32,000 nt of DNA from Candidatus Saccharimonadota bacterium (lineage in GTDB: Bacteria; Patescibacteriota; Gracilibacteria; BD1-5; UBA2023). Below, piece after piece: positions 1,757 to 22,529 of this stretch; positions within the stretch are counted from its first letter, which is position 1; every line of letters starts with the position of its first letter. The translations under genes were made by a program, and so were the position numbers. The notes under the pieces are model-generated. The model was not told where the DNA came from. It made no database searches and saw only the letters and a program-made list of their open reading frames with translations. Where the stretch lies: positions 1 through 32,000 of the forward strand of contig BAAFHK010000003.1 of assembly GCA_042852035.1 (NCBI GenBank), written 5' to 3'.

Positions 1757-1760
1757 CATC

Positions 1761-3221: not shown

Positions 3222-3235
3222 TTACTCCCTACTAT

Positions 3236-3601
3236 ATGAAGAAAAAAATCCCACAACTCAAGAAAAAGCTTCATGGATTCATTACGAATGAAGACTGATC
3301 TATTCGACGTGAATCTATGGTGAAACTCTCCGTATGATGAGCTATGCTCCTCTGATGAGCTTCTGCTCTTCCTGATTCAGCAAATGCAGGACATTCAAAT
3401 GGGTATATTTCCTGCGCTCCAACTGGAAACACTCCAGCGATTAATGCAAGTATTGGTGTAAATACCTCCATAAATCTCAATGGTCACTTTAATGGAGTTT
3501 GATCATCCACACATGCCAATTACGGACACTGAAATTATAGTACCGCATGTTGGCAAAACATTCATGGATCTCACGGAAGCTGTGGATGATGATGTTGGTA
3601 A
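3236..3601 (+). CDS. precursor peptide A1 (HxsA-like; His/Asn/Gly/Ser-rich core with Cys-rich C-terminus)
   Basis: ATG 3236 is 14 nt after the hxsB-like stop, and the stop is TAA 3599..3601. 121 aa with 9 in-frame TGA by my count. Leader: MKKKIPQLKKKLHGFITNEDGSIRRESMVKLSVGGAMLLGGASALPDSANA. Core: GHSNGYISCAPTGNTPAINASIGVNTSINLNGHFNGVGSSTHANYGHGNYSTACWQNIHGSHGSCGGGCW. The leader and core motifs (VNTS, NGH[FY]N, GHGN) recur in 15444..15944. Confidence 0.6.
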
Positions 3602-3619
3602 TTGTTTTTCACTCTTTTT

Positions 3620-5732: not shown

Positions 5733-5774
5733 TGTGTCGTTTGATATTTTCTCTATTCGGATACAATAACTTTC

Positions 5775-6701
5775 ATGTGACCTTGAGATCTTCACATATT
5801 CTCTCTAAAAAAAGGAGCTATTATCAAAATCATTTACTGATGTAATCATAAATGTAGCTTTTGTCATGAAAAAGACAACATAGCATCGCTTGATTTTCGT
5901 TCCCTGAAGATTGAGAATCTCCAAGATATATATACATGGATACATTCAAATGGTTTTGATTATATTATACTATCTTGATGAGAGCCAACACTCCACCCTC
6001 ATTTAGTTGATTTTATAGTATTTTTTCAAGAAAAGGGCATTTATGTGGTAGTCGTCAATAATGGGACTCACCTTCATAAACACGATTTCTCAAAGGTAAA
6101 TAAAGATAAAATTACTTTTTATATATCTTATCACGGACAAAAGGAATATTACAATGATATTACAGGAAGTCATGACTTTGATATTGTAACTAAAAACATA
6201 AAAATGCTCGCTGAAAGATTTCCAGAAGTTATCCTTAGGTGTGTCCTAAATTATAAAAACCTTGAATCTATAGAAGATTTCACTCTTGAAGCTTTGAGCC
6301 TGAGCCCTTCGGTTTACCTAGAGTTTATCCTTCCTGAAGATTTGAAATATGAGCATGTAAATAAAGTCTCTATTCCTCTCAAAGAGTACCATGTTTTGGT
6401 TCTTAAATACCTCAAAAATAAACGAATACTTTTTGATGGATGAGCTGGGTGTTTCCATCCAAAGATATTCGAAATATTGGAAACACGTTTTGATCCATTA
6501 GTAAACACAATGATTGGACGAGTCAAAAAAGATAAAACTGGTCTCTTATTTAATATAAAGACTCAGGACTCTGAACATAATATCAAAAGCTTTTGGAAAA
6601 AATGCTCCCAATGCAAAAAGAAATCTTTTTGTCATTGATTTGATATTCTCTATTTGCAAAAATTTAGTAAAAATATCCCCATTGAGGATGGGAAAGTCTA
6701 A
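5775..6701 (+). CDS. radical SAM enzyme
   Basis: ATG 5775 gives MGPGDLHIFSLKKGAIIKIIYGCNHKCSFCHE (Cx3Cx2C). ILS-G-G-EPTLHP has both Gly encoded by TGA TGA. The C-terminus reads CSQCKKKSFCHG. Stop TAA 6699..6701, 308 aa. Track ORF 6045..6443 is an internal fragment in the same frame. Confidence 0.75.
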
Positions 6702-6933
6702 AGTCTAGAAATGCCCTTTCCTGATATGGAGAATATAGTTTGTGTTATCCATAAAATGACTTTACCATTTTTTAGGATTGAAAAAATAAATGACCAAAAG
6801 TCACATAATGAAATTTATAGAAAATTAATCTAGACCCAAAAAAGAAATAGTACTTATACTTGAAAGAAGATATATTTCGGTACAATCAAGGAAAATTAAG
6901 ACTAATTTAGAATCAAAATTGTGTTAAAATAAC

Positions 6934-7992
6934 ATGATCCCCAACCTCTTTTTCGCCATCAATGAAGACTGTAATCTCGATTGTACGTACTGTAACGTCA
7001 AAAAGTCGAAACAAAAACTCTCTCTAGAAAAAATCATAGAATGAGTCCTTTATTTTATTAAGTTTTTTCCGGAAGCTACAGGATACAACATCTTTTTTAC
7101 CTGAGGAGAACCCCTTCTCTCTTTTCGGGAAATTGTATCTGCTACTTACTTTTTGAAGAAACTTGAGAAAAAAATCGGAAGAAGTTTCTCGATTCATATA
7201 CCCACGAATGGCACACTCCTCACTGATGAACGTATAGCATTTTTTGTAAAAAATAATATTACCATTTCTTTAAGTATCGATAGTCTAGATATAGCGTATT
7301 CGGAACGTCCCTTTGTGTGAAAATCCCTAGTTCCATCCCAAAGTGTTATTGCAAAAATTTTCCCGAACATAAAAAAATACGCAAATATATTTCGAATAAA
7401 AATGGTTGCAACTCCTCAGGAAGTTCCATCTATAGAGCGGACATTCTGAGAATTCTACCAACTCTGATTCCGATTTATCAATATCCAACCTGCTCATGGA
7501 GTTTATTGGTCAAAGGAAGCTCAAGACAGCTATATCGAAACTCTACTTTCCCTCAGAAAGAATCTTGAAAATTTCCCCTGACTGGAATCAACAACCCTCA
7601 AAAAATCAGGTTCACATACTCACACCATGAAACGATGTGCAAAATGAATCTCTGAAATATGCATCGATAGCTATGGGAATATTCTTACCTGTGATGCCTT
7701 TCTTGCATATAGTCCCGATATAAGAAAGTCTTTTGCATTTGATTCACTTGAAAAACCTGGATTTGATAGAGAAAAATTTCGAAAAGGTTCCGACTGGAAA
7801 TACTGTCAGAATGAAATCATTGCGCATGTTGATGGAACTATAGATTATGATCTTACCCACTGCAAAACCTGTAATGAATCGATCTCTTGTACAAAGCTCT
7901 GTAATGCTGTCCCCATAAACGGTCAAGAACTCGATAGTACTATACTTCTATCAAACTTTGAATTATTTCGTAGAATAGATTCACTTATCTAA
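6934..7992 (+). CDS. radical SAM/SPASM-domain peptide-modifying enzyme
   Basis: ATG 6934 gives MIPNLFFAINEDCNLDCTYCN. FFT-G-GEPLLS has TGA at 7102..7104. Also IPTNGTLL and ISLSIDS. The C-terminal CAKGISEICIDSYGNILTCD plus CKTCNESISCTKLC (Cx2Cx5Cx3C) is a SPASM signature. Stop TAA 7990..7992, 352 aa. Track ORF 7317..7568 is an out-of-frame shadow. Confidence 0.8.
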
Positions 7993-7993
7993 T

Positions 7994-8980
7994 ATGGATT
8001 TTGCCTATTTTCAAGTTGTACGCATCTGTAACCAAAAATGCATCTTTTGTGCTCAACCATCGAATGGAAGAATTGAGTCGCTCAAAAAAATACAAGAAAG
8101 GATTGACTGGTATAAGGACCAATGATATGAGTGAATTATCCTCAACGGCGGAGAACCAACCCTTCATAAAGAGATTGTTAACATCATTAAGTATACCGCA
8201 CAAAAGTGAATATATTCAAAAATGATATCGAATGGGATAAATTTTTCAAATGCTGAACTTGCCAAGGCTTGTGTTGATGCCTGACTCAAGCAGATTCACA
8301 TATCATTCCACAGCTATATACCAGAAGTTGAAAATAACCTCATGAGATGAGATGTTTATGAAAAGCAGCTCAAATGACTCCTCAACATGCTTCTCCATAA
8401 AAACAAGATCGATGTCTGGGTGAATATTGTTATGAACCAGTACACAATACGTCATTTAGATAAAACTGTACTTTTTTTTCTCAAACTCTGAGTGCGAAAT
8501 TTTGTTATTAATAATCTAGAAGTCACTTGAGTATATCCAGAATATTTAGAGAAATTACTGTTTCGCTTGAAAGAAGCTGAAGAGCCCCTCAAAAAGGCAC
8601 TCCATCTTATCCGAAAATATGGAAACATCGCGCGCGTCTCGCGTATCCCCATGTGCTATCTACGATGATTTGAAGACTATTCACGAGATATCGAGTATTA
8701 TATCCTCCATACAAAAAAATATATTCATTACCTGAATGATGATAAACACCCCAAGCAATCCGATTTCGTAAGCGATGAAGTAAGTTGGCAAAGTGGTGAA
8801 GGATCGCCTACTTGAATGAGACGTTCTCGAACCGAAAATTGTAGTCATTGTGATCTTCGTCATATGTGCTCCTGATATGATCTGCTTGATTTTTTCCCAG
8901 GTGAAGACCCTCTTATTCGACAGAAAGTTGATAATGAAGAAATGCAGACTATACTGAACAACATCTTATGAAAAAAATAG
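7994..8980 (+). CDS. radical SAM enzyme, possibly HxsC-like (tandem paralog 1)
   Basis: ATG 7994 is one nt after the previous stop. Motifs: VRICNQKCIFCAQPSNG; ILNGGEPTLH; ISFHSY; C-terminal ENCSHCDLRHMCSG. Stop TAG 8978..8980, 328 aa. The CxxxCxFCAQP context recalls the CxxxCxMCSQPP of HxsC (from memory, unverified). Confidence 0.7.
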
Positions 8981-9924
8981 CATACCTTCAACTTCATAGA
9001 ATCTGCGATCAAGAGTGCGTTTTTTGTGCCCAACCCTCGAATGGATCAGTACTCGATTTCAAAGCCATAAAGAAACAAATAGATGCTTTTGTTCAAGATG
9101 GTTACTCAAAGGTTATTTTTTCTTGAGGAGAACCAAGTCTCAATAAAGATTTTTTTGAAGTTATTGCGTACGGTAAAAGTCTCGGCATCGAAATGACCAT
9201 TCTCTCAAATGGTCATCGATTTTCGGAGTATGATTTCGCAAAAAAATCCGTCGAATCATGACTTCTACAGTACCATATATCCCTCCATTCACATATATCA
9301 GATATACACGACGCCTTAGTAAAAAAACCATGATCCCTGAAACGATGTTTTCAAGCGCTTCATCATCTACTATCACTCTCTGCGCACATCACAATAAATA
9401 TAACGATTAATGCTTATAATGTATCCTATTTTGATAGGCTTATTAAAGCTATCCTCAAAGAATTCCCTTCTATTCATGGATTTATTATCAATAACCTTGA
9501 AACCTCTCAGATTCCTCGAGAGCATTATAGTGTTATAGCAAAACTTTCGGAGATAAAAAAAACCATTCCGAATACCCTTCAAATTTTAGAAAATTCTGGT
9601 AAAAAATTCCGTATAGAAAGGGTTCCTTTCTGCTATATTCGATGATACGAGCATCATTCTACCGATCTTGAGTACGTCATCGACGGGGAAGAAAAATTTC
9701 TTCACTATCTCTGAGAGTCAAGAGCGTCTCACAAGGTAAAAAAAGAAAACTACGTTCATAACTCCAAATATGGCGAATCATGCTCAGCATGTGATCTAAA
9801 ATGACTCTGTGCTGGTCAGGAAGGTCTCAATATCCACTACTTTCCCGAAGAGCTTATTCCACAGACCGTAAGTGAAGCTGAGAAAAAACAAATTATTCAA
9901 AAATTCTATGAATGTTATTGTTAA
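8968..9924 (+). CDS. radical SAM enzyme, possibly HxsC-like (tandem paralog 2)
   Basis: ATG 8968 overlaps the previous CDS by 13 nt. Motifs: HRICDQECVFCAQPSNG; IFS-G-GEPSL (first Gly is TGA); ISLHSH; ERVPFCYIRGYE (compare RIPMCYLRGFE in the paralog); SCSACDLKGLCAG. Stop TAA 9922..9924, 318 aa. Confidence 0.7.
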
Positions 9925-11434
9925 CATCTCATGAGATACCTGAACGAATACACCTCCAAAAATTGCAAGACTTCTGGAGCTTTGAGAGACCTTCCCTATT
10001 CCGAAAAGTATTTATTTCCCTCTCTCTTATATTTCGGACATGGATGATATTCTTCATGCGTACGAAACACTCATTCATGAAGAGAAATATATCGTGCGTT
10101 CAGCGGATAAAACTGAAGATGGAGATCATAAAAGTTATGCCGGAGTATATCTAACAAAAACAAATAAGTATTCCAAGAAGAACCTGAGAAATGATATTCT
10201 TTCAGTAGCTCTGGGACTGTCAGAAGGAGGCTTTATACTTATCCAAGAATATATTGAGGCAGATTTTTCATGAATATACTTTGGAAACATTGGTTATGAG
10301 AGGAGTTGAATTGAGTATATTGCTGGATGAAATGAATTATTAACAAACTGAAGTGAAGTTGGATCAAGTATAATCTTCGATAAAAATGGGAAGCAAATCG
10401 TAAGTGAGGTTCAATATCAAGATTCGATACTTAAAAACTCTCTTCAAAAAGAGGACTTTTGTTCTTATGCAAATATTCGCATGAGTGAAAGAGAAGCGAT
10501 AAAAGATACCCTCTTCAATCTAAAAACCACTTCCTGAAATAATATAGATGTGGAATGGGCTATAAAAAATGGTCGAGTGTACATACTCCAAATTCGTTCA
10601 ATCACAAAACCTCTCGCTTTACCTCAGGATAGAGTAGACAAAAATAACCTCATAAAACCCTTTCGAGAAATTCTCGGGAAATGCGCTTTCATGCAGATAT
10701 TTTTTCGGGAACTATGATTTGAATCTTCGAGTATTATCTATGATATGGGATGAGGACTTCTCTATTGTGGAGTCTTTGGGAACAATGCCCAACAAGAACA
10801 ATTAGTCCAGATTATCAATTCAGACAAGCTCTACATCCTCTTAGATCGTGAAGATCCTCAATATGAGAAAATATTTCAAGAAAATGAGCGAAATGAACTC
10901 CGGTTCAAAGACCAGCGACTCGAAAGTTTGTTTGAAAAATATAGAAAAGATACTGGCATAGCAATCTTTCTCGCACGACTTCGAGTACATTCTGACCTGA
11001 GTCTCTTTTGTGACTTTAGGTATCCTTGACTTTTTTTTCTCAAACAGGAAAAAACTTTTTCAAGTTTACTCGAAGAAAAAAATAAAAGCGAATGAACTCT
11101 CTCTCTAGGACTAGGAGATGAGATTCCTTTTTCGTCATCACATAACCTTGAATCTCTCGAGGAGAGAGAATTGAGTGTAACAAAAAATATACAAGTCACA
11201 TGATTCGAGAATTCTGTATTCGTTGGATTTGATATACGCGACTATAAAGTTCATCCAAATATAAAACTTCTCCTTTTGGAACGATCAAGTCATCTTTCAC
11301 ATGGTGCGATACTCGCCCGAGAAATTGGTATACCCTGCATATATGGAGTAAAATGAATTACATCTCATCTCAAATTATGACAGAGACTGGTAATTGACAA
11401 AATTAATTATAATATTAAAATATGTAAATACTAA
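9908..11434 (+). CDS. PEP-utilising-enzyme-like phosphotransferase (PPDK_N ATP-grasp domain + swivel phosphohistidine domain, no TIM-barrel domain)
   Basis: ATG 9908 overlaps the previous CDS by 17 nt. The N-terminus is MNVIVNISGDTGTNTPPKIARLLELGETFPIPK (GGK..L..G.P-type). IVRSADKTEDGDHKSYAGVYLT and DVEWAIKNGRVYILQIRSIT match PEP synthase / PPDK / rifampin-phosphotransferase ATP-grasp motifs. The C-terminal LLERSSHLSHGAILAREIGIPCIYGV is the mobile His domain. I translated codon by codon from 10262 to TAA 11432..11434 and found no TAA or TAG. 508 aa. Confidence 0.7.
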
Positions 11435-11449
11435 CTTAGTAATTGGGGT

Positions 11450-13090
11450 ATGAATCAACTATCAAGAAAATACACTCTCAGTGAAGAGATTTGAGAGTTT
11501 GATACATGAAAGAACCTCAAATGAGCTCCTTCTACAAGATTTCAGGTAGCCGCCCTTCTCGATGAATCTCAACAACGAATGAATGGGCATGCAACTCAAG
11601 AGATTTTAGACATGACTCCTCCAACTGTGCTCATCGCTGAATATGCCAGAGCAAAGTGAGTACTCAAGATTCAACATAATGGAAGGATTATTGAAATTCC
11701 CGGAGGAGAAATATGAGGTGATGAAATAGTTTATTTGAGTCAAAAAGCAATAGAAGTATCACCATGAATAAATGAATGGCTTCGTGAAAATCCAGACTGT
11801 ATAAGAATTGAGTGAGAGTATCTCGTAGCGATTCACTTACCTGAAGGAGGAAAACGGTGAGGATTCTTTGATATTGTTATGAAAGAATTTTCTTCTACAG
11901 CAACCTCTCCACTGAAGCACGACATCGTTGAGCTCCATCTATGAGCCTGAGACTCAAAATTTTCCACCGTTATGGAGTGAGTCACTCCAAGTATGTTAGG
12001 AAAAATGCTGCGAAGAAAATTTAACATCGGAAATAATCCTAACTGGCAAAGCGAGCGAACACGAGAAAATCATGAGCGTCATTATGAGAAACTTCTTTGA
12101 ATCCCCGGAATAAAACCTCCTCAAATCTATCTCACTCTTTCAGGAAAATCAGCTAATACTGCGGTAATTCGTGATGTTTCAAAGAGTACCCCACCAAACA
12201 CCCTAACTGTATATCCTGGTTATTTTTTTCTGAATGAACCCGATTTCCCAGAGGGTACAAAAAATACGATTCATGATACCACTCAGTGATTTTTTGCATC
12301 TGTAGAATCTTGATATGCAGGAATCCAAAAGGAAGAGTATGATGCATGACTTTTAGAAGCGGTGAGAAAAATGATTAATCTCGCCTCAAGAAACACAGGA
12401 ACTTCATATTCTATATCTCTTGATGTCACTTCTGATATTCTGTCTTTCCAAAAAAGTGAACTCTGACAACTCATTCAAAAAGCCCTTAAACTGCAAAATC
12501 TTCGGGTTATTATTACGAGCAGTCTGACGAAATATAATCGAAATGAACCGAACTATCATTTTGGAATTATTGCTGATTTTTCATGAGAAGACCCCCTCTC
12601 TCTTGATGTCCTTGTAGAAACATCATATGGCTGACTCTCACCACTTTGAATCCTCCAATACCCTCGTCTTAAGAAAAATGAACTTGAGTGACTCAAATCC
12701 CAATCACAAAAATCCTGAGAGGCTTTTCTCTCATGATTCAAGCAGGCTGTATGAGATATATGAAATGGGATTATAGAGATTGAATCTTATACCCCCTATA
12801 GCTATATTCGATTCCCGTGACTCCCCGAAGATAAACGAAATAGACTCGTAAGTGAATTTCTCAAAGAGAGAGCTATACGCCCCTATGTAGGAAGTTCATT
12901 TTACCTCGAAGACTTCCGGATATGCGATGTCCCCGATGTGAATTGTTCACGTTTCTGAACAAGTAGTGATCGTAGCTTTCGTAATAATATTCGAGTGAGT
13001 TTCCCAACTTGAGATAAAGACGCGGCAAAAATGGGATTACTGGTGGGAGAAAAAATCAGAAATCTACTACAAGAAGCCACTTTTTCATAG
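11450..13090 (+). CDS. PLP-dependent-enzyme-like protein (fold type I, Cys/Met-metabolism-like motifs)
   Basis: ATG 11450, TAG 13088..13090, 546 aa, open only with TGA = Gly. Motifs: LTLSGKSANTAVI; RVIITSSLTKYNRNEPNYHFGII (S-x-T-K lysine motif); C-terminal NNIRVSFPTGDKD (compare RLSVGLED). The functional call is motif-level only. Confidence 0.5.
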
Positions 13091-13145
13091 TGTAGAAGAA
13101 CTTACTGTGTGATTGTAAATTTTAAAAAAATCGTATAATCACACC

Positions 13146-15392
13146 ATGCCAAATCTTATTATTCGGGAAGAGGAATTCTCTTGAGTTCCTTCGACGATTA
13201 GTTTCCCCCAACTCGTTCTAATACTCAGTTTTCTCAAGAAAAGATGAGAGAATCAGATTCGAATCTGCTGAGTCCATCCACTCAAACATCCAGAAGTAAA
13301 GAAGATTGTTGAAGTAATTCGGCGAGGAGGATTCGATTCAACCTTTGTTCTTTCATCCGAAGAAATAAAACAATGCATATTTCCTGAGAATATCACTCAG
13401 GCTGAGATTATTGTTCACGATATCAACTCCCTTCGTGCTGAGGATATAAAAATCATTAAAAATACGACCGAAAATATCCTTCTTGAATTCGAAGTTCCAG
13501 CAGAAAAAGATACCTATAAAAAAATTATTAATTTCTGTGAAAGTACAGAAATTCGAGATATTCGATACCGAGTACATCATCCTGAATTTTGAGAGAAAGA
13601 GATTTCTACACTTCCAGAAGAAAGGATAAACTCTCTATTTGAACATATTGTTACTTATAAAAATTCCTTCAACATTTCCCTGAATTGTGGAATCAGTAGA
13701 GACTTATTTTCTTCATCCCAAAAAGAAAAATTGTCTCAAATTTCATACTTTTGGAATGAAGGATGCTCTGGGTATGTTTGAAGGTATGATATCTATCCAA
13801 ATGGCGAAATAAAAAAATGTAAGCCCCTTAAAAAACTCTATGGGATTGATGGACTCAGACTCGAAAATTTTGATTCTGAAAATGATCTCTTCTTGGCTAT
13901 TGATATTGAGGAAAGTACTTCAGGTTGCATTACAGAAAAGCCCTATCCAACAAAAGACGAAATGCCGTTCGATAATTATCCATGATTTTATGAAGAAGAT
14001 AATCGAAAAAATCGTCACGTCCTACGAACGACCAAGGAACTTATAGAAAAAAAGAATACCGTCGTTCTTCCACCAGAACTTGTTCGAGGAAAGTCTGTTC
14101 TTGATCTTGGATCTTGTATATGAGCGATGTGACAGTGGGCACTCTTTTATGGGGCCAAGTCATATACCTGAGTAGAAATTCAAGAATCGTATGCAAAAAC
14201 ATCCAGAAAACTCCTCGCTCACCACGGTGACAAAGTAAGAATCATACAAAGCAGTCTCGAGAAATTTCTTTCAACGAATACAGAAAAATTTGATATCGTA
14301 CTTTGTCTCTGAGTGATTTATGTTGCGATTGACTACTATTCGATACTGAGAAAAATCTCTGAAATATGTAACGATTTTACGGTTATCGAGTCATTCTACC
14401 CAGATAACAGACTCCTCGACACTAATGTACCATGAGTACTCTTTGTAAATGACCATGGGATTAATCTTTCGACTCATAATGCTTCTCTCATGTGAAGATG
14501 AAGTCATATTAGTCCAAGTGGCCTTGATTTTCTCATGTCATGACTCTGAATGACTTCAGAGTGAGACATCCTACAACCAATGAAGATCTATCAGTGAATC
14601 GATTCCTATAGAATCCGATGAGTATGAAGGTACATGAAACGTTATCATCAAGGGAAACAAAAAAGTCTCCCTTCTCTTTCTGAGAAACTCGAACATGGGA
14701 TTATTGATAGAATCAAGCCTTGGGAAATGATGCAAAACTGACTCGAACCTAAAGAAGTAAGTGGACCATGGGAATTTGGCAATAAAATTGCGCATAATTT
14801 TTTCGATCACGCAAAGAATCATATCCCAAATTATGAAAAAACCATAGATCTCTGCCTACAGATTGTCCAAAAATACCTCCCAAATAGAAGTTCAAGAATT
14901 CTTGAATTTTGAAGCGCAATTTGATATACCCTTGAGAAATTTGAAAGGGCAGGATACAGAAATATTCTTTGAATCGAAAAGTCAGAGTCGATGTATAACC
15001 AAAGTACAATGAAAGAACATGTACGAGTACGAGATACCTTAATAGATGAAGATGGTCTATTTTCTGCTATTTTAGCGAATTGGACACTTCATTTTATCGA
15101 GGAACGTGAACCTATCATACAATCATTTTACAATCATCTTGAAGTAGGATGAATCCTTATAATTACAGATAAGGTGTCCTCGTCTGGACTCTCACACGAA
15201 CTGTATATGGATTTTAAACGATCTAATTGACTTTCAGAAGATGAGATTCAAACAAAAACAAAGTCTCTTAAAGGAGTGCTCTTCCCATTCGATATTACTT
15301 GGTATTTTACTACCCTGAAGAAAATAGGATTCTCAAGCATCGATATCATCACGGCAAGTCCATCTTTTGTAACATTTCTCATACAGAAATAG
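13146..15392 (+). CDS. three-domain fusion: radical-SAM/SPASM-like domain lacking Cx3Cx2C + CmoB-like methyltransferase domain + CmoA-like (carboxy-SAM synthase family) domain
   Basis: ATG 13146, TAG 15390..15392, 748 aa in one frame. The N-terminal ~290 aa has radical-SAM-like strands (IRICGVHPLKHPEV..) and a twitch/SPASM-like NEGCSGYVGRYDIYPNGEIKKC, but no CxxxCxxC. The middle domain reads KSVLDLGSCI-G-AM-G (TGA at 14121 and 14130), ...FDIVLCLGVIYVA, compare CmoB TILDVGCGSGYH...FDTVFSMGVLYH. The C-terminal domain reads PWEFGNKIAHNFFDHAKNHIPNYEK...RILEF-G-SAI-G-YTL...NWTLHFIEE...GGILIITDK...[22 protein letters not shown], compare E. coli CmoA [24 protein letters not shown]...VYDLGCSLGAATL...NFTLQFLEP...GGALVLSEK...[22 protein letters not shown]. 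Confidence 0.65.
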
Positions 15393-15443: not shown

Positions 15444-15944
15444 ATGGAAAAAAAAGGAATCATCCCAAAGTTCAAAAAGAAACTTACCGCCTTCCTTACT
15501 GAAGAAGCCGGAAGTATTCGTAGAGAAGATATCCTCACCATCGGTGCGGCTACTCTTCTCGTAGCATGAGGACTTTCAGATCAGGCAAATGCCTATCTCA
15601 CTCTTGGTGACTGTCATACTAACCATAATAATTTCGTAAGTACATCAGATGGTTATACTCATTCGAGTGGATGGGTCCATTCAAACACGACTCCTGCGCC
15701 TCTCTGTATGCATGAGAACTACACAACCCCATCTGCCTGAGGACATGGAAATGCAGTAGCGGTAAATACCTCAACTGCCTGATCTGATAATAAAATCGTA
15801 AACTGACACTATAATCAGATTCCAAGCGCTGGAGCATCACACGTAAATCGTTGACATGCGAACGTAAACCCAGTATACTATGTTGCTCACAATGACGGAT
15901 ACGTTTATCATAGCAGTCATGCGAATCATTCGGATGGTGGTTAA
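15444..15944 (+). CDS. precursor peptide A2 (HxsA-like His-Xaa-Ser-rich peptide)
   Basis: ATG 15444, TAA 15942..15944, 166 aa with 5 in-frame TGA. Leader: MEKKGIIPKFKKKLTAFLTEEAGSIRREDILTIGAATLLVAGGLSDQANA, homologous to the A1 leader. The core has 13 His, including GYTHSSGWVHSNT and YVYHSSHANHSDGG (His-Ser-Ser / His-Xaa-Ser), and shares the GGHGNAVAVNTST and NGHYN motifs with A1. Confidence 0.65.
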
Positions 15945-17011: not shown

Positions 17012-18109
17012 ATGTCCACTATTCAAAGTTTCCCATACACTATTTGATACAACGATAACAAGGTATTAAATATTTATATAGAAAAATATAAGCAAATTCT
17101 CCACCATCTCGCCCAGAAGCACCTCGATAAAGACATCGCAGCTACTCCTGATATTCTCCAATTTTTATCAATTGGAGATATAGCATCAAACCTTTTATTA
17201 CTCGGGAAGCCTGAACCATGAAATGGCGCTGAGTATGCGAAGAAATTCTTAGAGAAAGAATGGGCGGAGTTTAAAATCGGTGGACTCCAAAATCTTTCGT
17301 CTGTCAAGTGATCAAAGATCCCAGGAACAAATATCCTTCTTACCAACAACGATTATACCCCAGGAGGCGTCGCGAGGATTAATCATCCAAGCCAAAAGGA
17401 TGGAGCTCAACTTACGGGATTTTCTTCGATTGAAGAAAAAGAGTGGCTTAACCTCTATGCTCAGGTTTTTGAAAAAATCCGTGAGATACATCCATGATTT
17501 TATACCGAATTAACAAGCGTCCTACAAAAAGTTGTCCCAATAGGAATATCTCGTGACTGTCATAACTCTGGATCATTCTCGGACTGTATCGGACACATAT
17601 ATATGAGCTACCCGATAGGGAATATTGAACCAGTGATTGCCGTACTTGAGGCAGTTATCCACGAGTACAATCATAATAAACTTCATATTATTATGATGTC
17701 TGATCCATTGATTCTCAACAGTGGTGAAGAAATATACTACTCTCCGTATAGGCCCGATGCGAGACACCTATATGGTATTTATGCGTGACTTCATGCTCTA
17801 TCCGCCGTTTTATATGTTATCTTTACTTGAATTCAAGAAGGCACTCTCACTTCACCAAGTAAGGACCTAATTCTGAAGTCGCTCCTCTACTTCATGAAAG
17901 ATGAGGCGTCAGTTCGGGTCCTAGAAAAATATGGGAAATTCTCCCCTCTCGGACAAGAGCTCCTCAATGAAATGAAAGCGGTACATAAGCATACCCTGGG
18001 AATTATAAAAGAGCTCCGATACGGTCATGAACTCTTAGAAGCTGCTTCTCGAGAATGCAGAAATCACTTCCTTGAAGCACAAAAAAATAACAAAAAAATC
18101 CTATACTAA
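17012..18109 (+). CDS. HExxH-motif domain protein (family of peptide-modifying, aKG-HExxH-type hydroxylase-like proteins)
   Basis: ATG 17012, TAA 18107..18109, 365 aa. The track fragments at 17280, 17603 and 17894 are mostly pieces of this gene or shadows of it. The core reads PVIAVLEAVIHEYNHNKLHIIMMSDPLILNSGEEIYYSPYRPDARHLYGIYAGLHALSAV. That is the HExxH..L...(~20)..SP.R.D.R...G pattern of the HEXXH motif domain found beside radical SAM/SPASM maturases (from memory). Confidence 0.65.
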
Positions 18110-19305
18110 AAGAAGAGCTTATCGAAAAGAGTGTAAGAATTATCAAGAAAAGCATACCACATATGTAGTGCTATATATGCTAAATTCTGCTGCATAACTA
18201 TCGTATAGAGAAATGCCATAAAAATAATATGTGCATATGGGTGATTATTATATACAATCATATACGTAGTAGTCTCATCCCTTCAGCACTTTTGAGCAAG
18301 TGCCTTTAGGAACCTTAAAGCATGTGAATCAACTGTCTTAGAGAAAACACTCTGAACTTCTTCTACCATACTATATCTCTCCTTTTCTTCGAAATCTGGT
18401 GCAAAAGTACCGATAATATGCTCTACATCAAGATTATCTCAAATCTTGATGTTTTTTATTGTTCTCGGAATTAAGTCATAACGACGAATAAATTTGGAGA
18501 ATAGATAAAGAAATCATGAAATGAGAGCCATAGTAGGAAGAGAATACTTTCCAAAGAAAAACAAATCGTAGATAAACCTATCAACTGACCGATAGTACAC
18601 AAAAAGGATAAGTATGACCGTTAGAGCTAGGATTAAGGTATAATTTACTCATTTTATTGCTGCTTTGCGAATATTCTTATTTATCAGTCGAAAAATACTC
18701 ACCACTGCAATGATCAGAGCTGGATAGAGAGGGCTTTTGGGGTCGCCTATAGAATAAAAATAGTTCACGAGTTTCTCACTGAACATCTGCAATAGACTGA
18801 ATGATAAAACAATAACGAGACTATATTGGATAATATTTAGTATCCATTCCTTTGTTGTTTTTTTCTTTACTTCATTTTTTGTATTCTTTTCCATTTTACT
18901 CGGATCGATTGCGTCTATAAATCTTGATTGGATAAGAGAAATAAGACATAAAATAACAATTGTGAAAACTGCAATATTTCCAGCAAAAGAAATATAACGT
19001 CCATCAAAAAGAAACATGGAGAGAACAATCGTATACTTTGCATCCCCTGCAGCCCATCAATTATAAAGATAGAGAAGAAATGAAACAACGAACGTAAACA
19101 AAATTGAAGTAAGGTAAAATCCCCACTGAAATCCACTAATAAAACCCAACTTTAGAGAAAGAGTGAGTAATATGGGCAACAAAAACAAGAGTGATAATAA
19201 AATGTAGTTTGGTATTACTTTAAACTTCCAATCTTTATAAACAAGAAAGAGGTTTAGAAAAAAGAATAAAGCCAGGAAAAACCAAAATGTAATCGAAAGG
19301 ATCAT
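18106..19305 (-). CDS. A24-family (prepilin-peptidase/CpaA-type) aspartic membrane protease with ~180-aa C-terminal extension
   Basis: The ATG at 19305 is 5 nt after the hxsB-like stop; an alternative TTG at 19320 would overlap it. Track pieces 19057..19320 and 18649..19017 share one frame and are joined by TGA. Motifs are VYKDWKFKVIPN (first Asp motif, D....IPN) and GWAAGDAKY (second Asp motif, G.GD.K). Reading TGA 18649..18651 as Gly extends the frame a further 181 codons without TAA or TAG to TAG 18106..18108, adding more TM segments and a soluble tail. My base indexing near 18650 and 18720 disagreed with the track by 1 nt, so I followed the track frame. Confidence 0.55.
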
Positions 19306-19310
19306 ACGAA

Positions 19311-20759
19311 TTAAAACCAAGAGCGAAATACTTTTTCGTTCTCTGGATCTTGTAATTTTTCAAAAATATAATCAAGCATAATTATCTGCATCTTATTTTT
19401 CTCATCTTTTGAAAAGTTCGAGAATATGGTCCCATACTGGGTGAAATTATAGAGTATATCTACTCCTATATAAGGTTTATAAACATGGTCATTATAACCT
19501 GGAAGACCATCAATAACCGATGATTCAAGAGCAGCTCGAGTTACGGTGCTTTGAGCCATAGCCTTCATAGTTTGATCCCCTGTTGCAAGCATTGGCGTAA
19601 GTAAGAAGTCTTCGATACCCATCCTTCCAAGCATACGAGCCTCATCACCAGCATAGACCTTTCCATCATAATTATAGGCAACTCATCCAACTGCAACTCA
19701 TGATGGAGAACGAATATCCATGAAGTTCCCATCGGCATTAAAGAATATCTTTGAGAGGTACACACTCGTTATCATTTCTCTTAATTTATAGCCCGATTTA
19801 TTAATCTCAATGACATAATCAAGTCATTTCTGGAAAAAATCAAGAAATTCAGTTGGGGTAAACTCCATACGTTCTCGTTCGACGGTAGCAAATCCATACG
19901 GATTAAGCCATCGAAATCAGATACTTCGCAGCCCAAGACTCACATACGTATCGATTATTTCTTTATATTGCTTAATACTCGTTTTCGTCCAGGTAGCAAG
20001 AGCTCCTATACTAAATGATTCTGGTGCTCCTCTGTATTTTATTTCCTCATTTATTCGTTTTATCCAGTAAGACACTGTATCGAAACTATCTCATTCTTTC
20101 CAAACTCTTTGTGCATTATGAACAAGCTTATCTCCGTCAAGAGACGTACATATCTCCACCTTATGATCCAAAAGCCATTTGAGTTTTTCTTCACTCATAA
20201 GCGTCAGATTCGATACGATACTCAGGAAAAGCTGTTTCGAAAGAGACTCTGCCTTTTGCCTAGCGTATTCAGTAATAAATTGCACCACCTCCCAATTGAC
20301 GAGAGATTCTCATCACTGAAACTCGATGGTTATACTTGGAGAGGAGCTAAAAAAAATGGTATCTACAACATTCTTTGCTGTCTCAAGAGTCATATCTAGT
20401 CATTTCGCTGTCATAGGTGCAACTGCAGCGTGGCAATATTCGCATTTATGATTGCAACGCAATGTTGTAACAATCATATGAAGCGTAGGACCATAGTAGA
20501 GAAATTTATTCTTTTCGAGGTACAGAGCAGCTAACTTTTCTTCATAGTCAGGAGTCTTATAGAAAAGTTTTTCTGTAAGTTCATCTTTTTTAGGTCAAGT
20601 AAGCTCCCCGGAGATAAATTTTTCAAAATCTCAAGAGGTGAGAAAAGAATATTTTCCGATATCATTCGTGATAAGTATATCTCAAGATTTCATTTTTTTA
20701 TAGCGAAAAAATGCTATCTCTTGGGAAAGATTCTCAATAGTTTTCAAAGTAAGACTCAT
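19311..20759 (-). CDS. hxsB: HxsB-like radical SAM peptide maturase (copy 2)
   Basis: ATG 20759, stop TAA at 19311..19313, 482 aa. It contains track pieces 19311..19634 and 20091..20288. Motifs: LRCNHKCEYCHAAVAPMTAK; IEFQGGESLVNWEVV; CTSLDGDKLVHN; WLNPYGFA; AYNYDGKVYAGDEARMLGRMG; GLPGYNDHVYKPYIG. It is collinear with 1761..3221 throughout but diverged at synonymous sites. Confidence 0.8.
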
Positions 20760-20766
20760 ATATTCC

Positions 20767-20961
20767 TTAGATTAATTTTTCATTATAAAGTGCGACACAG
20801 TAATTTGAAAATTCATCAAACAGTCATTGTGGATCCTCATCCTGAATTGAAATTCCATCTTGAATAGATTGAATATCAAAAGACTCAAATTCAGAGATTG
20901 CTTCTTCCAGAAGGGCTTGAGGATAGAAATTTTTATCGAGATTGAAATTTTTCTTTTGCAT
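20767..20961 (-). CDS. 64-aa conserved small protein of the Hxs-like module (copy 2)
   Basis: ATG 20961 lies inside the end of the HxsD-like CDS (29-nt overlap, other frame), and the stop TAA is at 20767..20769. The product MQKKNFNLDKNFYPQALLEEAISEFESFDIQS...GLFDEFSNYCVALYNEKLI is a paralog of 1568..1756. Confidence 0.5.
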
Positions 20962-21487
20962 TCTTAACTTTATTAGGATCTAACTGAGGGGTTTTCTTTG
21001 TTTGAGTTCCACTCATATCGACTTCAATTTCCTTCAAAATCCGATCTATCTCACCCTGATCAATCTTAAGCTCTGGATCATTTTCAATTTCTTTTAAGAT
21101 TTCATCAATATCCCTATCAAAGTCAATCTGTGGATTTGAATTCGAGATTTGATTTGGAACAAAATTTTGACTATCAACATACGAACCAAGAGCTCGCATA
21201 ACTATAGTTTCTCGAATCGTTTTATTATCTCTTTCAAGTTTATCACGAAGAAGGGTTGCAAGAAGTTCATCACTGTATTCAAGAGCAAACGCCTCACTAC
21301 TCCAACGTTGATTTTCTTTTGGATGAATTTGAACTAGGGTATTCTCCCCATCTCTCTTAAAAAAGAAATAGCATCGATCAAGAAACATATACGCCGCCTT
21401 CATGACGACTGCCTCTGAAAAGATTCCACCATCAATAAGAAGCTCTAGACGATTATTTTCCTGATTTTTTGAAAGAAAAGCAAACAT
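20933..21487 (-). CDS. HxsD-like protein (copy 2)
   Basis: This is an intact 184-aa ORF in the track with no internal TGA. MFAFLSKNQENNRLELLIDGGIFSEAVVMKAAYMFLDRCYFFF...WSSEAFALEYSDELLATLLRDKLERDNKTIRETIVMRAL. It is a paralog of 1096..1596. Confidence 0.65.
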   Translation of the reverse strand: MFAFLSKNQENNRLELLIDGGIFSEAVVMKAAYMFLDRCYFFFKRDGENTLVQIHPKENQRWSSEAFALEYSDELLATLLRDKLERDNKTIRETIVMRALGSYVDSQNFVPNQISNSNPQIDFDRDIDEILKEIENDPELKIDQGEIDRILKEIEVDMSGTQTKKTPQLDPNKVKNAKEKFQSR

Positions 21488-21536: not shown

Positions 21537-22529
21537 TTATTTTACGAATGATTGCTCACAGGAGATTCTAAGACTCTCGTCAACAAGTGATGAACAATCC
21601 GACTTTTTTCAGGACTTAATAATATCTGATATTCTGATTCTATCGAGACAGCTCTGTTTCATCTCTACGGCTTTAATTCTATTACAGAAATCCAATGATT
21701 GTTCTATCATCGCATTTTCAAAGAGACTTGAATCGGAAAGATCACCAATCGTAGTAAGACAGTGCGATTTGGTGTCTGGATTAACGATATTTTCACAGAT
21801 TTCAACATTCTGATTCGATTTCGCTCGAGAAAAATAGACTACATCATTACATTCTTGCTTGAGATCCTCTGTTGAAATATTTCCACAGCTTTCAGTACTC
21901 TGATTTGCAATTGCCTTCTCAAGAATTACTTTATCATTTGAAAGCTTTAAATCTGACTTGCATTGTTCTTTTGCAAGATCATTCGTGAAAGAATCACAAT
22001 CAACCTCTTCACCACTTTCTTCTCTATTATTTCTTATTTTTTCTCGAATGATTCGTATCTCAATCCCCTGAGTACATTTATCACGAGATCATGAGTTCGA
22101 AATTTTCAAACATTCATCAATTTTTCATGAAAGCTGGGCAAGGCGAAAATAAATTTGATCCCTACACTCAATAGCTCCAGTCTCTGAAAGGACATCACAC
22201 TTTGTTGGATCATTTTCTTTTAATGCCAGTGCAAGTCATGATTTCTCGATACATTCTTGCTTAAGTTCTGGTATGGATATTGTTTCGCATAGCGCAGGAT
22301 TAGCATTCAATATGGCAGAGTTTACCCTATCAATTGCTTGGGTAACCATCTGCTGTCTCTCCTCCTCAGTCATAACATGCTCCTGTCATTCTCAATCTTG
22401 TTGTTCACCACCACTGGAGAATCATGGTAACTCTCCTCAATCATCAGGAGATCGAGAGGAGTAGAGATAACCGAAGATTGCTACTCCTGCAATAAGCAGA
22501 AGAGAAATAATAGTATAGGATGTTTTCAT
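21537..22529 (-). CDS. membrane-anchored protein with eight C-x10/11-C repeats
   Basis: ATG 22529, TAA at 21537..21539, 330 aa. The N-terminal MKTSYTIISLLLIAGVAIFGYLY is a TM anchor. Eight Cys pairs follow: CETISIPELKQEC, CDVLSETGAIEC, CLKISNSGSRDKC, CDSFTNDLAKEQC, CGNISTEDLKQEC, CENIVNPDTKSHC, CNRIKAVEMKQSC and CSSLVDESLRISC. The CDS is open only with TGA = Gly. It lies 49 nt upstream of, and on the same strand as, the HxsD-like copy 2. Confidence 0.6.

What the first reader, a model, noticed from the sequence alone, without database searches (positions are those of the whole stretch)
18106..19305. An A24 prepilin-peptidase-type protease is embedded in, and coupled to, the maturase operon
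The gene starts 5 nt after the second HxsB-like gene (or overlaps it if TTG 19320 is used), so it belongs to that transcription unit and not to the pilin genes 11 kb away. Both catalytic Asp contexts are recognisable (KDWKFKVIPN and GWAAGDAKY). With UGA = Gly the protein does not stop at 18649. It continues for ~180 more residues with extra TM segments and a soluble tail not seen in ordinary PilD/CpaA enzymes. It is a candidate leader peptidase for A1/A2. Alternatively it is simply the prepilin peptidase for the cell that happens to sit here.
Basis: partly seen in the sequence, partly recalled or inferred. Interest (0 to 1): 0.65.

Follow-up and report, generated by a model that had tools for sequence, protein, structure and literature searches.

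The report
Prepilin-peptidase-like protease in radical-SAM peptide cluster
A real, conserved 399-residue membrane aspartyl protease of the prepilin-peptidase (A24) family is built into a giant radical-SAM peptide-maturation gene cluster of a UGA=Gly bacterium, and its relatives sit next to the same maturation genes in other Gracilibacteria and in DPANN archaea, so it is probably a dedicated processing enzyme for the cluster's His/Ser/Gly-repeat precursors, not simply the cell's pilin peptidase.

Summary
With UGA read as Gly (code 25), window 18106-19305(-) is one 399-aa ORF. It starts 5 nt after an HxsB radical-SAM maturase gene. Full-length homologues at 83% and 46% identity have the same length and synteny, so the part beyond 18649 is real.

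It passes Pfam Peptidase_A24 marginally (27.3 bits against a cut-off of 26.5). D25 and D88 (AGDAKY) are invariant in about 30 relatives.

The "extension" is not a tail. It is an insertion of extra TM helices plus a cytoplasmic domain, placed before the conserved last A24 helix. Archaeal homologues carry Pfam Arc_PepC at that position.

Relatives as low as ~20% identity were found in Gracilibacteria, Peribacteria and two archaeal-type contigs. All but one of the informative loci place the gene directly beside HxsD/HxsB, HxsC-like rSAM genes, an HExxH hydroxylase or an HxsA3-like precursor. At least five different gene orders occur, which argues for functional coupling.

The precursors (>230 found) have a conserved cationic leader (…KKKLKxFLTDESGKITKKDALG), then a hydrophobic stretch, then a VxA signal-peptidase-I-type site. 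The residue before Phe is not a conserved Gly, so the cleavage site is unresolved.

I could not test whether the genome also has a canonical PilD. Verdict: a new variant of a known protease family in a new context. The mechanism is inferred.

The parts
18106..19305 (-). A24-like aspartyl membrane protease gene, 399 aa under code 25. In-frame TGA (Gly) codons lie at 19057-19059, 18649-18651, 18514-18516, 18439-18441 and 18283-18285.
18952..19269 (-). Peptidase_A24 core (aa 13-118). Putative catalytic D25 is at codon 19231-19233 and D88 at codon 19042-19044, within AGDAKY.
   Evidence: Pfam hit. Invariant columns. hhalign probability 98.9% to archaeal A24 homologues.
18490..18951 (-). Insertion of about five extra TM helices (aa ~119-272), including a Lys-rich loop at aa 130-152.
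   Evidence: Hydropathy. AF2 secondary structure. Conserved in the family.
18241..18489 (-). Predicted cytoplasmic alpha/beta domain (aa ~273-355) with the conserved LKxGDxxD motif (D293 invariant). It occupies the position of the Arc_PepC domain in archaeal homologues.
   Evidence: Arc_PepC is not detected directly in the target.
18109..18240 (-). Last TM helix with HPYAHIIFMAF plus a C-terminal helix. HPYAHIIFMAF is the counterpart of PFAP/PFGP in other A24 enzymes.
19311..20759 (-). HxsB2 radical SAM/SPASM maturase. It ends 5 nt before the A24-like start codon.
   Evidence: TIGR03978, 447 bits against a cut-off of 370
20767..20961 (-). 64-aa HxsD-like small protein. It overlaps the 3' end of HxsD2 by 29 nt.
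   Evidence: Conserved in L001-L003 and L008-L011.
20933..21487 (-). HxsD2
   Evidence: TIGR03976, 65 bits against a cut-off of 50
21537..22529 (-). Membrane-anchored Cys-rich repeat protein, probably the first gene of the minus-strand unit. Analogous Cys-rich proteins follow the precursor in the archaeal loci.
17012..18109 (+). aKG-HExxH-type peptide beta-hydroxylase. It is convergent with the A24-like gene, with a 4-nt overlap. Its homologue is the commonest direct neighbour of A24-like genes elsewhere.
   Evidence: TIGR04267, 62 bits against a cut-off of 40. Synteny.
15444..15944 (+). Precursor A2 (HxsA3-like, 166 aa). Leader is KKKLTA-FLTEEAGSIRRED, then a hydrophobic stretch, then QANA.
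   Evidence: NF038309, 41.7 bits, below the cut-off of 65. Family alignment.
3236..3601 (+). Precursor A1 (HxsA3-like, 121 aa from the second Met). Leader is KKKLHG-FITNEDGSIRRES, then a hydrophobic stretch, then SANA.
   Evidence: (P0067)
1096..15392 (+). Remainder of the plus-strand maturation cluster. It holds an HxsD-like gene, HxsB1, a Cys-rich protein, a HemN-like rSAM, four further rSAM genes (HxsC-like or SPASM), a PPDK/PEP-utilizer-like protein, an unknown 546-aa protein and a 748-aa double methyltransferase.

Best explanation
The gene encodes a divergent GxGD-type (A24 family) intramembrane aspartyl protease. It is a dedicated component of an Hxs-related, multi-radical-SAM maturation system for secreted His/Ser/Gly-repeat ('HxsA3-like') proteins.

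Proposed mechanism:
1. The precursors (A1, A2) are modified in the cytoplasm by HxsB, HxsC-like rSAM enzymes, the HExxH hydroxylase and the methyltransferases. During this step they are held by their conserved cationic N-terminal leader.
2. The protease has both Asp residues and an Arc_PepC-like domain at the cytoplasmic membrane face. It clips the N-terminal leader. Two sites are candidates. One is just before the pilin-like F-L-T-x-E (F+1/E+5). The other is at the boundary between the charged region and the hydrophobic stretch, as class III signal peptides are cut.
3. This releases or licenses the remaining Sec-type signal for export, and signal peptidase I cuts at VxA.

Shown: family membership at the sequence level; integrity and conservation of the ORF; operon coupling; conserved cross-domain gene neighbourhood; the architecture of the precursor leader.

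Inferred: catalytic activity, membrane topology, the substrate, the cleavage site and the order of events.
For: (1) A24 assignment. Pfam scores 27.3 bits, above the gathering score of 26.5. 25 of 29 relatives also hit the model. D25 and D88 are invariant. hhalign gives 98.9% probability and E 2e-17 to archaeal and clostridial-type A24 proteins.

(2) The protein is real and under selection over its full length.

(3) There is a 5-nt gap to HxsB2. The unit HxsD / HxsD' / HxsB / A24 is identical in orthologous contigs.

(4) Relatives at about 20% identity are directly adjacent to 5-8 rSAM genes, HExxH or precursors. This holds in L004-L007, in the GTDB loci L012, L013, L016 and L017, and in 14 of 14 metagenome loci.

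(5) The gene order varies. A24 follows HxsB in the window. A24 precedes HxsD in a tight operon A24 / HxsD / HxsD' / HxsB / precursor in a Woesearchaeota MAG and a second archaeal-type contig. A24 overlaps HExxH co-directionally in L028. It follows an HxsC-like rSAM gene in L029. It is divergent from a precursor in L031. It is convergent on the rSAM cluster in most other loci. Repeated independent juxtaposition argues for function and against inherited synteny.

(6) L004 carries two paralogues 9.5 kb apart, each beside modification genes. That is atypical for a housekeeping peptidase.

(7) All 120 listed precursor sequences have a long Lys-rich N-terminal leader with F/M(+1) and E(+5) (112 match the F..E anchor, the other 8 carry variants). 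112 were aligned. A hydrophobic segment follows.

(8) In E. coli HXS, the N-terminal cleavage of HxsA is non-canonical and its protease is unknown (PMC13128918).

(9) There is a precedent for a large, substrate-dedicated second A24 enzyme: EppA in methanogens (PMC4371748).
Against: (1) The Pfam score is marginal. No NCBIfam model matches, and there is no PDB match by sequence or by fold.

(2) The residue before the conserved Phe is Gly in only about 37% of precursors. Ser, Asn, Lys and others occur, and canonical prepilin peptidases need Gly or Ala there. The window's own A1/A2 lack a D-A or K-G pair at the charged/hydrophobic boundary.

(3) The precursors already carry a good signal-peptidase-I site: Ala at -1 in 75%, and Val/Ala/Thr at -3. 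A second protease is therefore not obviously required.

(4) Two precursor-anchored Gracilibacteria-type loci (L009, L011) have HxsD / HxsB / precursor but no A24-like gene within 10 kb.

(5) One A24-like locus (L014) has no rSAM or HExxH neighbour.

(6) Pilin-like genes with canonical G/A|FT(L/I)xE sites lie 5-11 kb away in the window, L006 and L007. Whether these genomes have another prepilin peptidase is unknown.
Confidence: 0.5

Rival explanations
1. It is the lineage's general (housekeeping) prepilin peptidase. It processes the type IV pilins and pseudopilins of the cell, and its position beside the maturation cluster is inherited synteny without functional meaning. It might also be shared between the two roles.
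For: These organisms encode pilins with canonical class III signals: window 30681 LKHG|FTLFE, L006 KKA|FTLVE, L007 QKA|FTIPE. They therefore need an A24 enzyme. No other A24 gene is seen in the 32-kb window or in any fetched locus. L014 has the gene without rSAM neighbours. L005, L006, L007 and L014 share DnaG / RpoD / surface-protein / A24 synteny, which could be vertical inheritance. A closed Gracilibacteria genome was reported to have one 'PilD' (PMC6851277).
Against: No pilB, pilC or pilM lies adjacent in any locus. The association with Hxs, rSAM or HExxH genes recurs in at least five different gene orders and in archaea. L004 has two paralogues. The protein lacks the N-terminal methyltransferase/DiS_P_DiS region of bacterial PilD, because it starts directly with TM1. 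The family is small, with 42 clusters at 50% identity among 1.84 billion representatives, against more than 230 precursor clusters. This suggests it is not universal in the class. Search sensitivities differ, so that last point is weak.
Confidence: 0.2
2. It belongs to the system but does not cut the precursor leader. Possibilities:
- It acts like a signal-peptide peptidase and clears the long leader/signal remnant after signal peptidase I cleavage.
- It processes other membrane-anchored cluster proteins, such as the Cys-rich proteins or the 337-aa protein starting MKG|RNIL...
- It serves as a membrane scaffold, exporter partner or immunity protein.
For: The neighbourhood evidence is the same as for the best explanation. 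The precursors have a strong VxA site, which makes signal peptidase I the likely liberating enzyme. A24 enzymes share the GxGD mechanism with SPP and presenilin (established knowledge). In L010 an SPP-family gene (PF06550) lies next to the A24-like gene. Cys-rich signal-anchored proteins are conserved cluster members. The ten-helix body is much larger than is needed for an A24 core.
Against: Nothing here favours these substrates over the precursors. The N-termini of the Cys-rich and 337-aa proteins are not conserved between orthologues. Both Asp residues are strictly conserved, which argues for catalysis and against a purely structural role.
Confidence: 0.22
3. It is a decayed or mis-called gene. 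On this view the A24 similarity is chance similarity between hydrophobic sequences, and the long ORF is an artefact of reading TGA as sense.
For: The Pfam score is only 0.8 bit above threshold. Similarity to E. coli GspO is insignificant in a direct profile-to-sequence comparison. There is no structural match.
Against: There are full-length orthologues at 46-83% identity with conserved blocks throughout. TGA aligns to GGN at conserved positions. The family-wide Pfam hits, invariant Asp residues and hhalign E of 2e-17 to archaeal A24 proteins all point the same way.
Confidence: 0.03

Closest known systems
Type IV prepilin / preflagellin peptidases (MEROPS A24; Pfam PF01478: PilD, GspO, TadV/CpaA, FlaK, PibD)
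   Same: It is a polytopic membrane protein. It has two Asp residues in the contexts D-x5-IPN and (G/A)-G-D-x-K, placed after TM1 and TM3 at the predicted cytoplasmic face. Its last helix is related to PF(G/A)P. The Pfam model is passed.
   Different: It has no N-terminal methyltransferase/Cys domain as in PilD. It is about twice the size of CpaA or FlaK, because five extra TM helices and a cytoplasmic domain are inserted between the GxGD helix and the last helix. The motif is AGDAKY, not GGGDVKL. It is not encoded with type IV filament genes. Its proposed substrates are not pilins.
Large archaeal A24 peptidases with the Arc_PepC domain (Pfam PF06819); functionally, EppA of Methanococcus maripaludis, a second, larger, substrate-restricted prepilin peptidase (PMC4371748)
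   Same: The architecture is an A24 core plus a C-terminal cytoplasmic domain. The Woesearchaeota homologue L008 passes Arc_PepC (25.8 bits, cut-off 23.4) and aligns with the target family over that region. The concept is also shared: a dedicated A24 paralogue serving a specific substrate family encoded nearby.
   Different: Arc_PepC is not detected directly in the target or its Gracilibacteria relatives. Relatedness to EppA itself was not tested. EppA substrates are pilins with Gln at +1. Here the neighbours are rSAM maturases and HxS-repeat precursors.
His-Xaa-Ser (HXS) system HxsA-D, an anti-phage system in E. coli in which HxsB/C/D mature and N-terminally process the periplasmic effector HxsA (PMC13128918)
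   Same: HxsB (two copies) and HxsD pass the NCBIfam equivalog cut-offs. A small HxsD-like protein, HxsC-like rSAM genes and secreted precursors with His-x-Ser/Ser-His-Gly repeats are present. N-terminal processing of the precursor is expected.
   Different: The canonical system has four genes (D-B-C-A) and no protease gene. This cluster has at least 8 rSAM genes, an HExxH hydroxylase, methyltransferases, a PPDK-like protein and Cys-rich proteins. Its precursors score below the HxsA3 cut-off and no gene reaches the HxsC cut-off. Its precursors lack a peptidoglycan-binding domain.
Signal peptide peptidase / presenilin (A22, GxGD intramembrane proteases)
   Same: Both use a GxGD-type aspartyl mechanism in the membrane. 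A role in disposing of signal-peptide remnants is conceivable.
   Different: There is no sequence match to PF06550 or PF01080. The topology and motifs are A24-like.

Membership tests
Peptidase A24 (Pfam PF01478, type IV leader peptidase family) | Match to the family HMM at or above the curated gathering score | tested here: met
   27.3 bits against 26.5, E 5e-6, aa 13-118. This is marginal. 25 of 29 relatives hit at E <= 0.01, with the best at 32 bits.
Peptidase A24 (Pfam PF01478, type IV leader peptidase family) | Two catalytic aspartates, the second in a GxGD-type motif | tested here: met
   D25 (KDWKFKVIPN) and D88 (WAAGDAKY) are invariant in the 29- and 19-sequence alignments. The motif is A-A-G-D, so only the Gly next to the Asp is kept. 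D25 aligns with the first Asp of E. coli GspO, but in a statistically weak alignment.
Peptidase A24 (Pfam PF01478, type IV leader peptidase family) | Polytopic membrane protein with both Asp residues at the cytoplasmic face | tested here: inconclusive
   Hydropathy and AF2 give TM1 at 2-22, TM2 at 34-53 and TM3 at 61-80, with Lys-rich segments after TM1. The topology is inferred from the positive-inside rule only.
Peptidase A24 (Pfam PF01478, type IV leader peptidase family) | Cleaves class III (prepilin-type) signal peptides after Gly/Ala at -1, N-terminal to the hydrophobic segment | not testable with these tools
   The candidate substrates have F(+1)/E(+5), but the -1 residue is variable: Gly 37%, Ser 18%, Asn 13%.
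Bacterial PilD-type bifunctional prepilin peptidase (A24A) | N-terminal cytoplasmic Cys-containing/methyltransferase region (Pfam DiS_P_DiS) before the A24 domain | tested here: not met
   The protein begins directly with TM1. No such Pfam hit appears even at E <= 1.
Bacterial PilD-type bifunctional prepilin peptidase (A24A) | Encoded with, or serving, a type IV filament machinery (pilB/pilC/pilins) | tested here: inconclusive
   There is no pilB/pilC in the window or in about 30 related loci. Single pilin-like genes lie 5-11 kb away in three loci.
Archaeal A24 peptidase with C-terminal domain (Pfam PF06819 Arc_PepC) | Match to the Arc_PepC HMM C-terminal to the A24 core | tested here: not met
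   There is no hit in the target or in 7 relatives at E <= 10. The archaeal homologue L008 passes (25.8 bits against 23.4), and L010 scores 17.5. The correspondence to target aa ~270-350 is indirect, through the family HMM alignment.
His-Xaa-Ser system (HxsA/B/C/D) | HxsB (TIGR03978) and HxsD (TIGR03976) above their cut-offs | tested here: met
   HxsB1 scores 446.7 and HxsB2 447.2 bits (cut-off 370). HxsD2 scores 65.2 (cut-off 50). HxsD1 scores 47.0, just below.
His-Xaa-Ser system (HxsA/B/C/D) | HxsC (TIGR03977) and an HxsA-type precursor above their cut-offs, in four-gene D-B-C-A organisation | tested here: not met
   The best HxsC score is 104.5 against 267.9. HxsA3 scores 41.7 and 23.6 against 65. 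The organisation is a cluster of more than 20 genes on two strands.

The most novel reading that the evidence does not exclude
A branch of the prepilin-peptidase family has been recruited, in CPR bacteria and DPANN archaea alike, as the leader-processing or export-licensing protease of radical-SAM-modified His/Ser/Gly-repeat secreted proteins. The pilin-like K-rich / F(+1) / E(+5) leader of these precursors would be its recognition element. This would be a new, non-pilin substrate class for A24 enzymes and the first membrane GxGD protease in a RiPP-like or Hxs-type pathway. It would also suggest what kind of enzyme performs the unexplained N-terminal cleavage in HXS-type systems.
Probability: 0.35. 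Interest if true: 0.75.

Novelty: new variant of a known kind. Interest (0 to 1): 0.6.

Why it matters
A24 aspartyl proteases are known only as maturases of type IV pilins, pseudopilins, Flp pilins and archaellins. A conserved branch tied to radical-SAM peptide or protein maturation would widen their substrate range. It would add a new kind of leader protease to RiPP-like biosynthesis.

It also gives a concrete candidate and a testable design for the N-terminal processing step of Hxs-type systems. That step was recently shown to be non-canonical in the E. coli anti-phage HXS system, and no protease has been identified for it (PMC13128918).

The cluster is one of the largest rSAM assemblies in organisms with about 1-Mb genomes, and it is shared between CPR bacteria and DPANN archaea. 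This hints at horizontal transfer of a cell-surface or defence function among episymbionts.

The gene is currently annotated only as 'hypothetical protein' in Gracilibacteria MAGs.

Tried and rejected
- PDB sequence searches with the 3-sequence and 29-sequence profiles found no A24 structure.
- AF2 with a 3-sequence alignment was unusable (pLDDT 48). With 19 sequences the model was acceptable (pLDDT 75, pTM 0.60). Foldseek against the PDB then gave only noise, E >= 1.4. There is therefore no structural confirmation.
- hhalign of the family profile against a single E. coli GspO sequence aligned only the first Asp region, without significance.
- The first search for related loci attempt, with the 29-sequence alignment, failed for lack of a conserved stretch.
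- Looking up the window's own protein to walk along its 256-kb contig failed because it is not on record. The test for a second pilD in the same genome could therefore not be run. The supplements of the closed Gracilibacteria genome paper held nothing on PilD.
- The promoter/terminator scan of 17.8-22.8 kb gave counts at or below shuffle expectation. It neither supports nor contradicts co-transcription.
- Locus L018, a third non-Gracilibacteria precursor, is cut 0.9 kb upstream and was uninformative.
- The idea that the residue before F in the precursor leader is a conserved prepilin Gly(-1) was tested on 112 sequences and rejected.
- A direct Arc_PepC assignment for the target was tested and not obtained.
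- Literature searches found no description of this protease family or of Gracilibacteria rSAM clusters.
Full report
**1. The sequence and the genetic code**

Under table 11 the window is shattered into short ORFs. ORFs of at least 100 aa cover 12 kb. Treating TGA as sense raises this to 65 kb, far more than treating TAG or TAA as sense does.

TGA encodes Gly. In HxsB2 both glycines of the radical-SAM 'FQGGE' motif are TGA. In the target gene, TGA codons 83 and 289 align with GGA and GGT in a 46%-identical orthologue, and a TGA in the 83% orthologue aligns with GGA in the window. The organism therefore uses code 25 (Gracilibacteria/Absconditabacteria). Homologues are annotated 'Candidatus Gracilibacteria bacterium'.

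**2. The observation**

Window 18106-19305(-) is a single 399-codon ORF with five in-frame TGA codons.

The ATG lies 5 nt (TTCGT) after the TAA of a gene that scores 447 bits on TIGR03978 (HxsB, cut-off 370). Upstream on the same strand are:
- a 64-aa HxsD-like ORF (20767-20961; NF038315, 28 bits)
- HxsD2 (20933-21487; 65 bits, cut-off 50)
- a membrane-anchored Cys-rich protein (21537-22529)

The 3' end overlaps by 4 nt the stop of a convergent aKG-HExxH peptide beta-hydroxylase gene (17012-18109, TIGR04267). That gene closes a 17-kb plus-strand cluster with:
- a second HxsD/HxsB pair
- two HxsA3-like precursors: A1 at 3236-3601 and A2 at 15444-15944
- five further rSAM genes
- a PPDK/PEP-utilizer-like protein
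- a double methyltransferase

**3. Is it an A24 protease, and is the long product real?**

Pfam Peptidase_A24 matches aa 13-118 at E 5e-6 and 27.3 bits, just above the gathering score of 26.5. NCBIfam has no model for it.

Two orthologues (P0002 at 83% identity and 399 aa; P0003 at 46% and 394 aa) align end to end. They share invariant blocks in the C-terminal third: KYS.PTM, R.YDLIP, TYM.VYNNHPYAHIIF. Synonymous differences occur along the whole gene. An indel artefact near 18650 is therefore excluded.

A profile search of 1.84 billion representative proteins found 42 relatives. Most are 400-450 aa and come from UGA-recoded organisms. In 29 of them D25, I31, N33, W84, D88, K90 and Y91 are invariant, and 25 of the 29 hit Peptidase_A24 on their own.

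A profile-profile comparison with two archaeal homologues and a 343-aa protein from a non-recoded organism gives 98.9% probability and E 2e-17 over the A24 core.

**4. Architecture**

Hydropathy and an AF2 model (19-sequence alignment, pLDDT 75, pTM 0.60) indicate about ten TM helices. The layout is:
- D25 just after TM1 and D88 just after TM3
- a Lys-rich loop at aa 130-152
- four to five additional helices
- a small alpha/beta domain at aa ~273-355, carrying the conserved LKxGDxxD motif with D293 invariant
- a last helix containing HPYAHIIFMAF

In relatives this last helix reads TFAFxxYIFxGF. In the archaeal homologues it reads LPFAPLLFMG. In a CpaA-like hit it reads IPVPYGVAI. It is therefore the counterpart of the PFGP helix that ends ordinary A24 enzymes (E. 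coli GspO has IAFGPWLALG).

So the 'extension' is an insertion inside the A24 fold, not a tail.

The Woesearchaeota homologue passes Pfam Arc_PepC ('Archaeal Peptidase A24 C-terminal domain', 25.8 bits against 23.4) exactly where the target has its soluble domain. The target itself does not hit that model, so the equivalence is indirect.

By the positive-inside rule both Asp residues and the soluble domain face the cytoplasm. This is an inference.

PDB sequence and fold searches gave nothing.

**5. Gene neighbourhood in relatives**

This is the key evidence.
- *Orthologous contigs* repeat HxsD / HxsD' / HxsB / A24, convergent on HExxH.
- *Distant relatives* at about 20% identity (L004-L007) each lie against clusters of 5-8 rSAM genes, with YcaO, aminotransferase or 2OG-oxygenase genes. 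In L005 and L006 the gene is divergent from an HExxH homologue. L004 and L006 have HxsA3-like precursors next door. L004 has two paralogues.
- *GTDB genomes* gave six loci from Gracilibacteria and Peribacteria. L013, L016 and L017 are convergent on eight rSAM genes. L012 and L017 are divergent from HExxH. L014 is the single exception: it has RpoD and a 902-aa surface protein on one side and a membrane transporter and DnaK on the other.
- *Metagenome loci*: all fourteen have HExxH and/or HxsC-like rSAM genes or a precursor close by, usually as the next gene. In L028 the HExxH gene overlaps A24 by 4 nt on the same strand. In L029 an HxsC-like gene precedes it on the same strand. In L031 a precursor is divergent from it.
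- *Loci reached from the precursor side*: a Woesearchaeota MAG (L008) and a second archaeal-type contig (L010) carry a tight operon A24-like / HxsD / HxsD' / HxsB / precursor / Cys-rich protein. It is followed by rSAM genes and, in L008, a PPDK-like gene.
- *Counter-examples*: two Gracilibacteria-type loci (L009, L011) have HxsD / HxsD' / HxsB / precursor but no A24-like gene within 10 kb.

No locus has pilB/pilC-type genes beside the protease. Isolated pilin-like genes occur 5-11 kb away in the window, L006 and L007.

The same partners recur in at least five arrangements and in two domains of life. I read this as functional coupling, not inherited synteny.

**6. The candidate substrates**

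A profile of five precursors retrieved more than 230 proteins of 100-175 aa. 112 were aligned on the F-L-T-x-E motif. The consensus is:

M..KKK[IL]FPK[LI]KKK[LI]Kx-FLTDESGKITKKDALG-[LI][AS]AGAxLL[AS]G[VA][ED][ED]VxA-[AG]H...

A core follows with C.H.SG.VNGH.S, and then a tail (SHG)n-S-[RG]-W(C).

Phe(+1) and Glu(+5) are essentially invariant, like the hallmark of bacterial type IV pilins, and the preceding region is Lys-rich. Three features depart from the pilin pattern:
- The -1 residue is Gly in only about 37% (counting TGA). Otherwise it is Ser, Asn, Lys, Asp and others.
- The hydrophobic stretch starts 13 residues later and is only about 14 residues long.
- That stretch ends in a good signal-peptidase-I site, with Val/Ala/Thr at -3 and Ala at -1 in 75%.

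The leader therefore looks like a conserved cationic extension fused to a Sec-type signal peptide. A1 (..LHG-FITNE..SANA) and A2 (..LTA-FLTEE..QANA) fit this pattern.

Where an A24 enzyme would cut cannot be decided from sequence. One option is before Phe. The other is at the charged/hydrophobic boundary: KKDA|LG in most precursors, K[AT]G| in the archaeal subgroup.

**7. Interpretation**

*Best explanation (confidence 0.5).* This is a dedicated A24-family protease of an Hxs-related multi-rSAM maturation system. It acts at the cytoplasmic membrane face on the N-terminal leader of the HxsA3-like precursors, before or in concert with Sec export and signal peptidase I.

Two points from the literature fit this reading. 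HxsA in the E. coli anti-phage HXS system undergoes non-canonical N-terminal cleavage by an unidentified protease (PMC13128918). Methanogens have a larger second prepilin peptidase, EppA, restricted to its own substrate family (PMC4371748).

*Rivals:*
- Housekeeping prepilin peptidase, merely syntenic or dual-use: 0.2.
- System component with another substrate or an SPP-like or scaffold role: 0.22.
- Artefact: 0.03.

The housekeeping rival survives mainly because I could not inspect the rest of the genome.

**8. Novelty and score**

The protease family is known. This branch is not described in Pfam or NCBIfam annotations or in the searched literature. What defines the branch is the inserted helices, the Arc_PepC-like domain, the AGDAKY motif, and its fixed association with rSAM, HExxH and HxS-repeat precursor genes in CPR bacteria and DPANN archaea. 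Members are labelled 'hypothetical protein'.

I rate it a new variant of a known kind, interest 0.6. The genomic association is solid. The biochemical role is inferred.

Noticed in passing
window 20767-20961 (-): A 64-aa ORF overlaps the 3' end of HxsD2 by 29 nt and ends 7 nt before HxsB2. It is an HxsD-like small protein (NF038315, 28 bits, below cut-off; the archaeal copy in L008 scores 50.7, above cut-off). A 64-77-aa copy sits between HxsD and HxsB in every Hxs-type locus examined (L001-L003, L008-L011).
   Followed up: partly
window 3236-3601 (+) and 15444-15944 (+); P0064-P0183: There is a large, unannotated family (>230 clusters) of 100-175-aa precursors. They share a highly conserved Lys-rich leader (FPKLKKKLKxFLTDESGKITKKDALG), a Sec-like h-region with a VxA site, a C.H.SG.VNGH.S core motif and a C-terminal (SHG)n-S-R/G-W(C) tail. 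They score below the HxsA3/A4 cut-offs. Members occur in Gracilibacteria and in DPANN archaea.
   Followed up: partly
window 18425-18452 (+): A perfect 11-bp hairpin followed by a T-run lies on the plus strand, inside the A24-like ORF (antisense) and 316 nt after the stop of the convergent HExxH gene. It could be the terminator of the plus-strand operon, embedded in the opposing gene. The overall terminator count in the region is no higher than in shuffles.
   Followed up: no
L004 1-523 and 10001-11287: Two paralogues of the A24-like family lie 9.5 kb apart. The first is convergent on 2OG-Fe(II) oxygenase and asparagine-synthase-like genes. The second is convergent on eight rSAM genes.
   Followed up: partly
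L010 5282-6220 (-): In the archaeal-type locus, a presenilin/SPP-family protease gene (PF06550) lies immediately upstream of, and divergent from, the A24-like / HxsD / HxsB operon. That puts two GxGD proteases side by side.
   Followed up: no
window 9908-11434 (+); L001 17848-19548; L008 17256-19187; L013 18924-19697: A PPDK_N / PEP-utilizer mobile-domain protein is a conserved member of the cluster in both bacteria and archaea. This suggests ATP- or phosphoryl-dependent chemistry on the precursor. An adjacent 546-aa protein has no family match.
   Followed up: no
window 2-931 (-); L004 7245-9830; L005 6296-8758; L006 5782-8244; L007 5713-9210; L014 7199-9907; L024 1-879: Large secreted proteins (820-1165 aa, Sec signal, Cys-containing N-terminal module, Ig-like repeats) flank the cluster. 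In several Gracilibacteria they are the direct upstream neighbour of the A24-like gene. In L014 this protein is the only conserved neighbour left.
   Followed up: partly
window 1096-22529: The window holds duplicated HxsD/HxsB pairs, the two HxsB paralogues both scoring about 447 bits, and at least eight radical-SAM genes within 22 kb. The organism's genome is expected to be only about 1 Mb. No gene reaches the HxsC equivalog cut-off.
   Followed up: partly
P0002, P0004 and many database relatives: Public gene calls for this family are often translated with code 4 (TGA = Trp), giving spurious Trp residues such as NWWAAGDAKY. Others are truncated at TGA under code 11. This fragments the family in protein databases and lowers search sensitivity.
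   Followed up: yes
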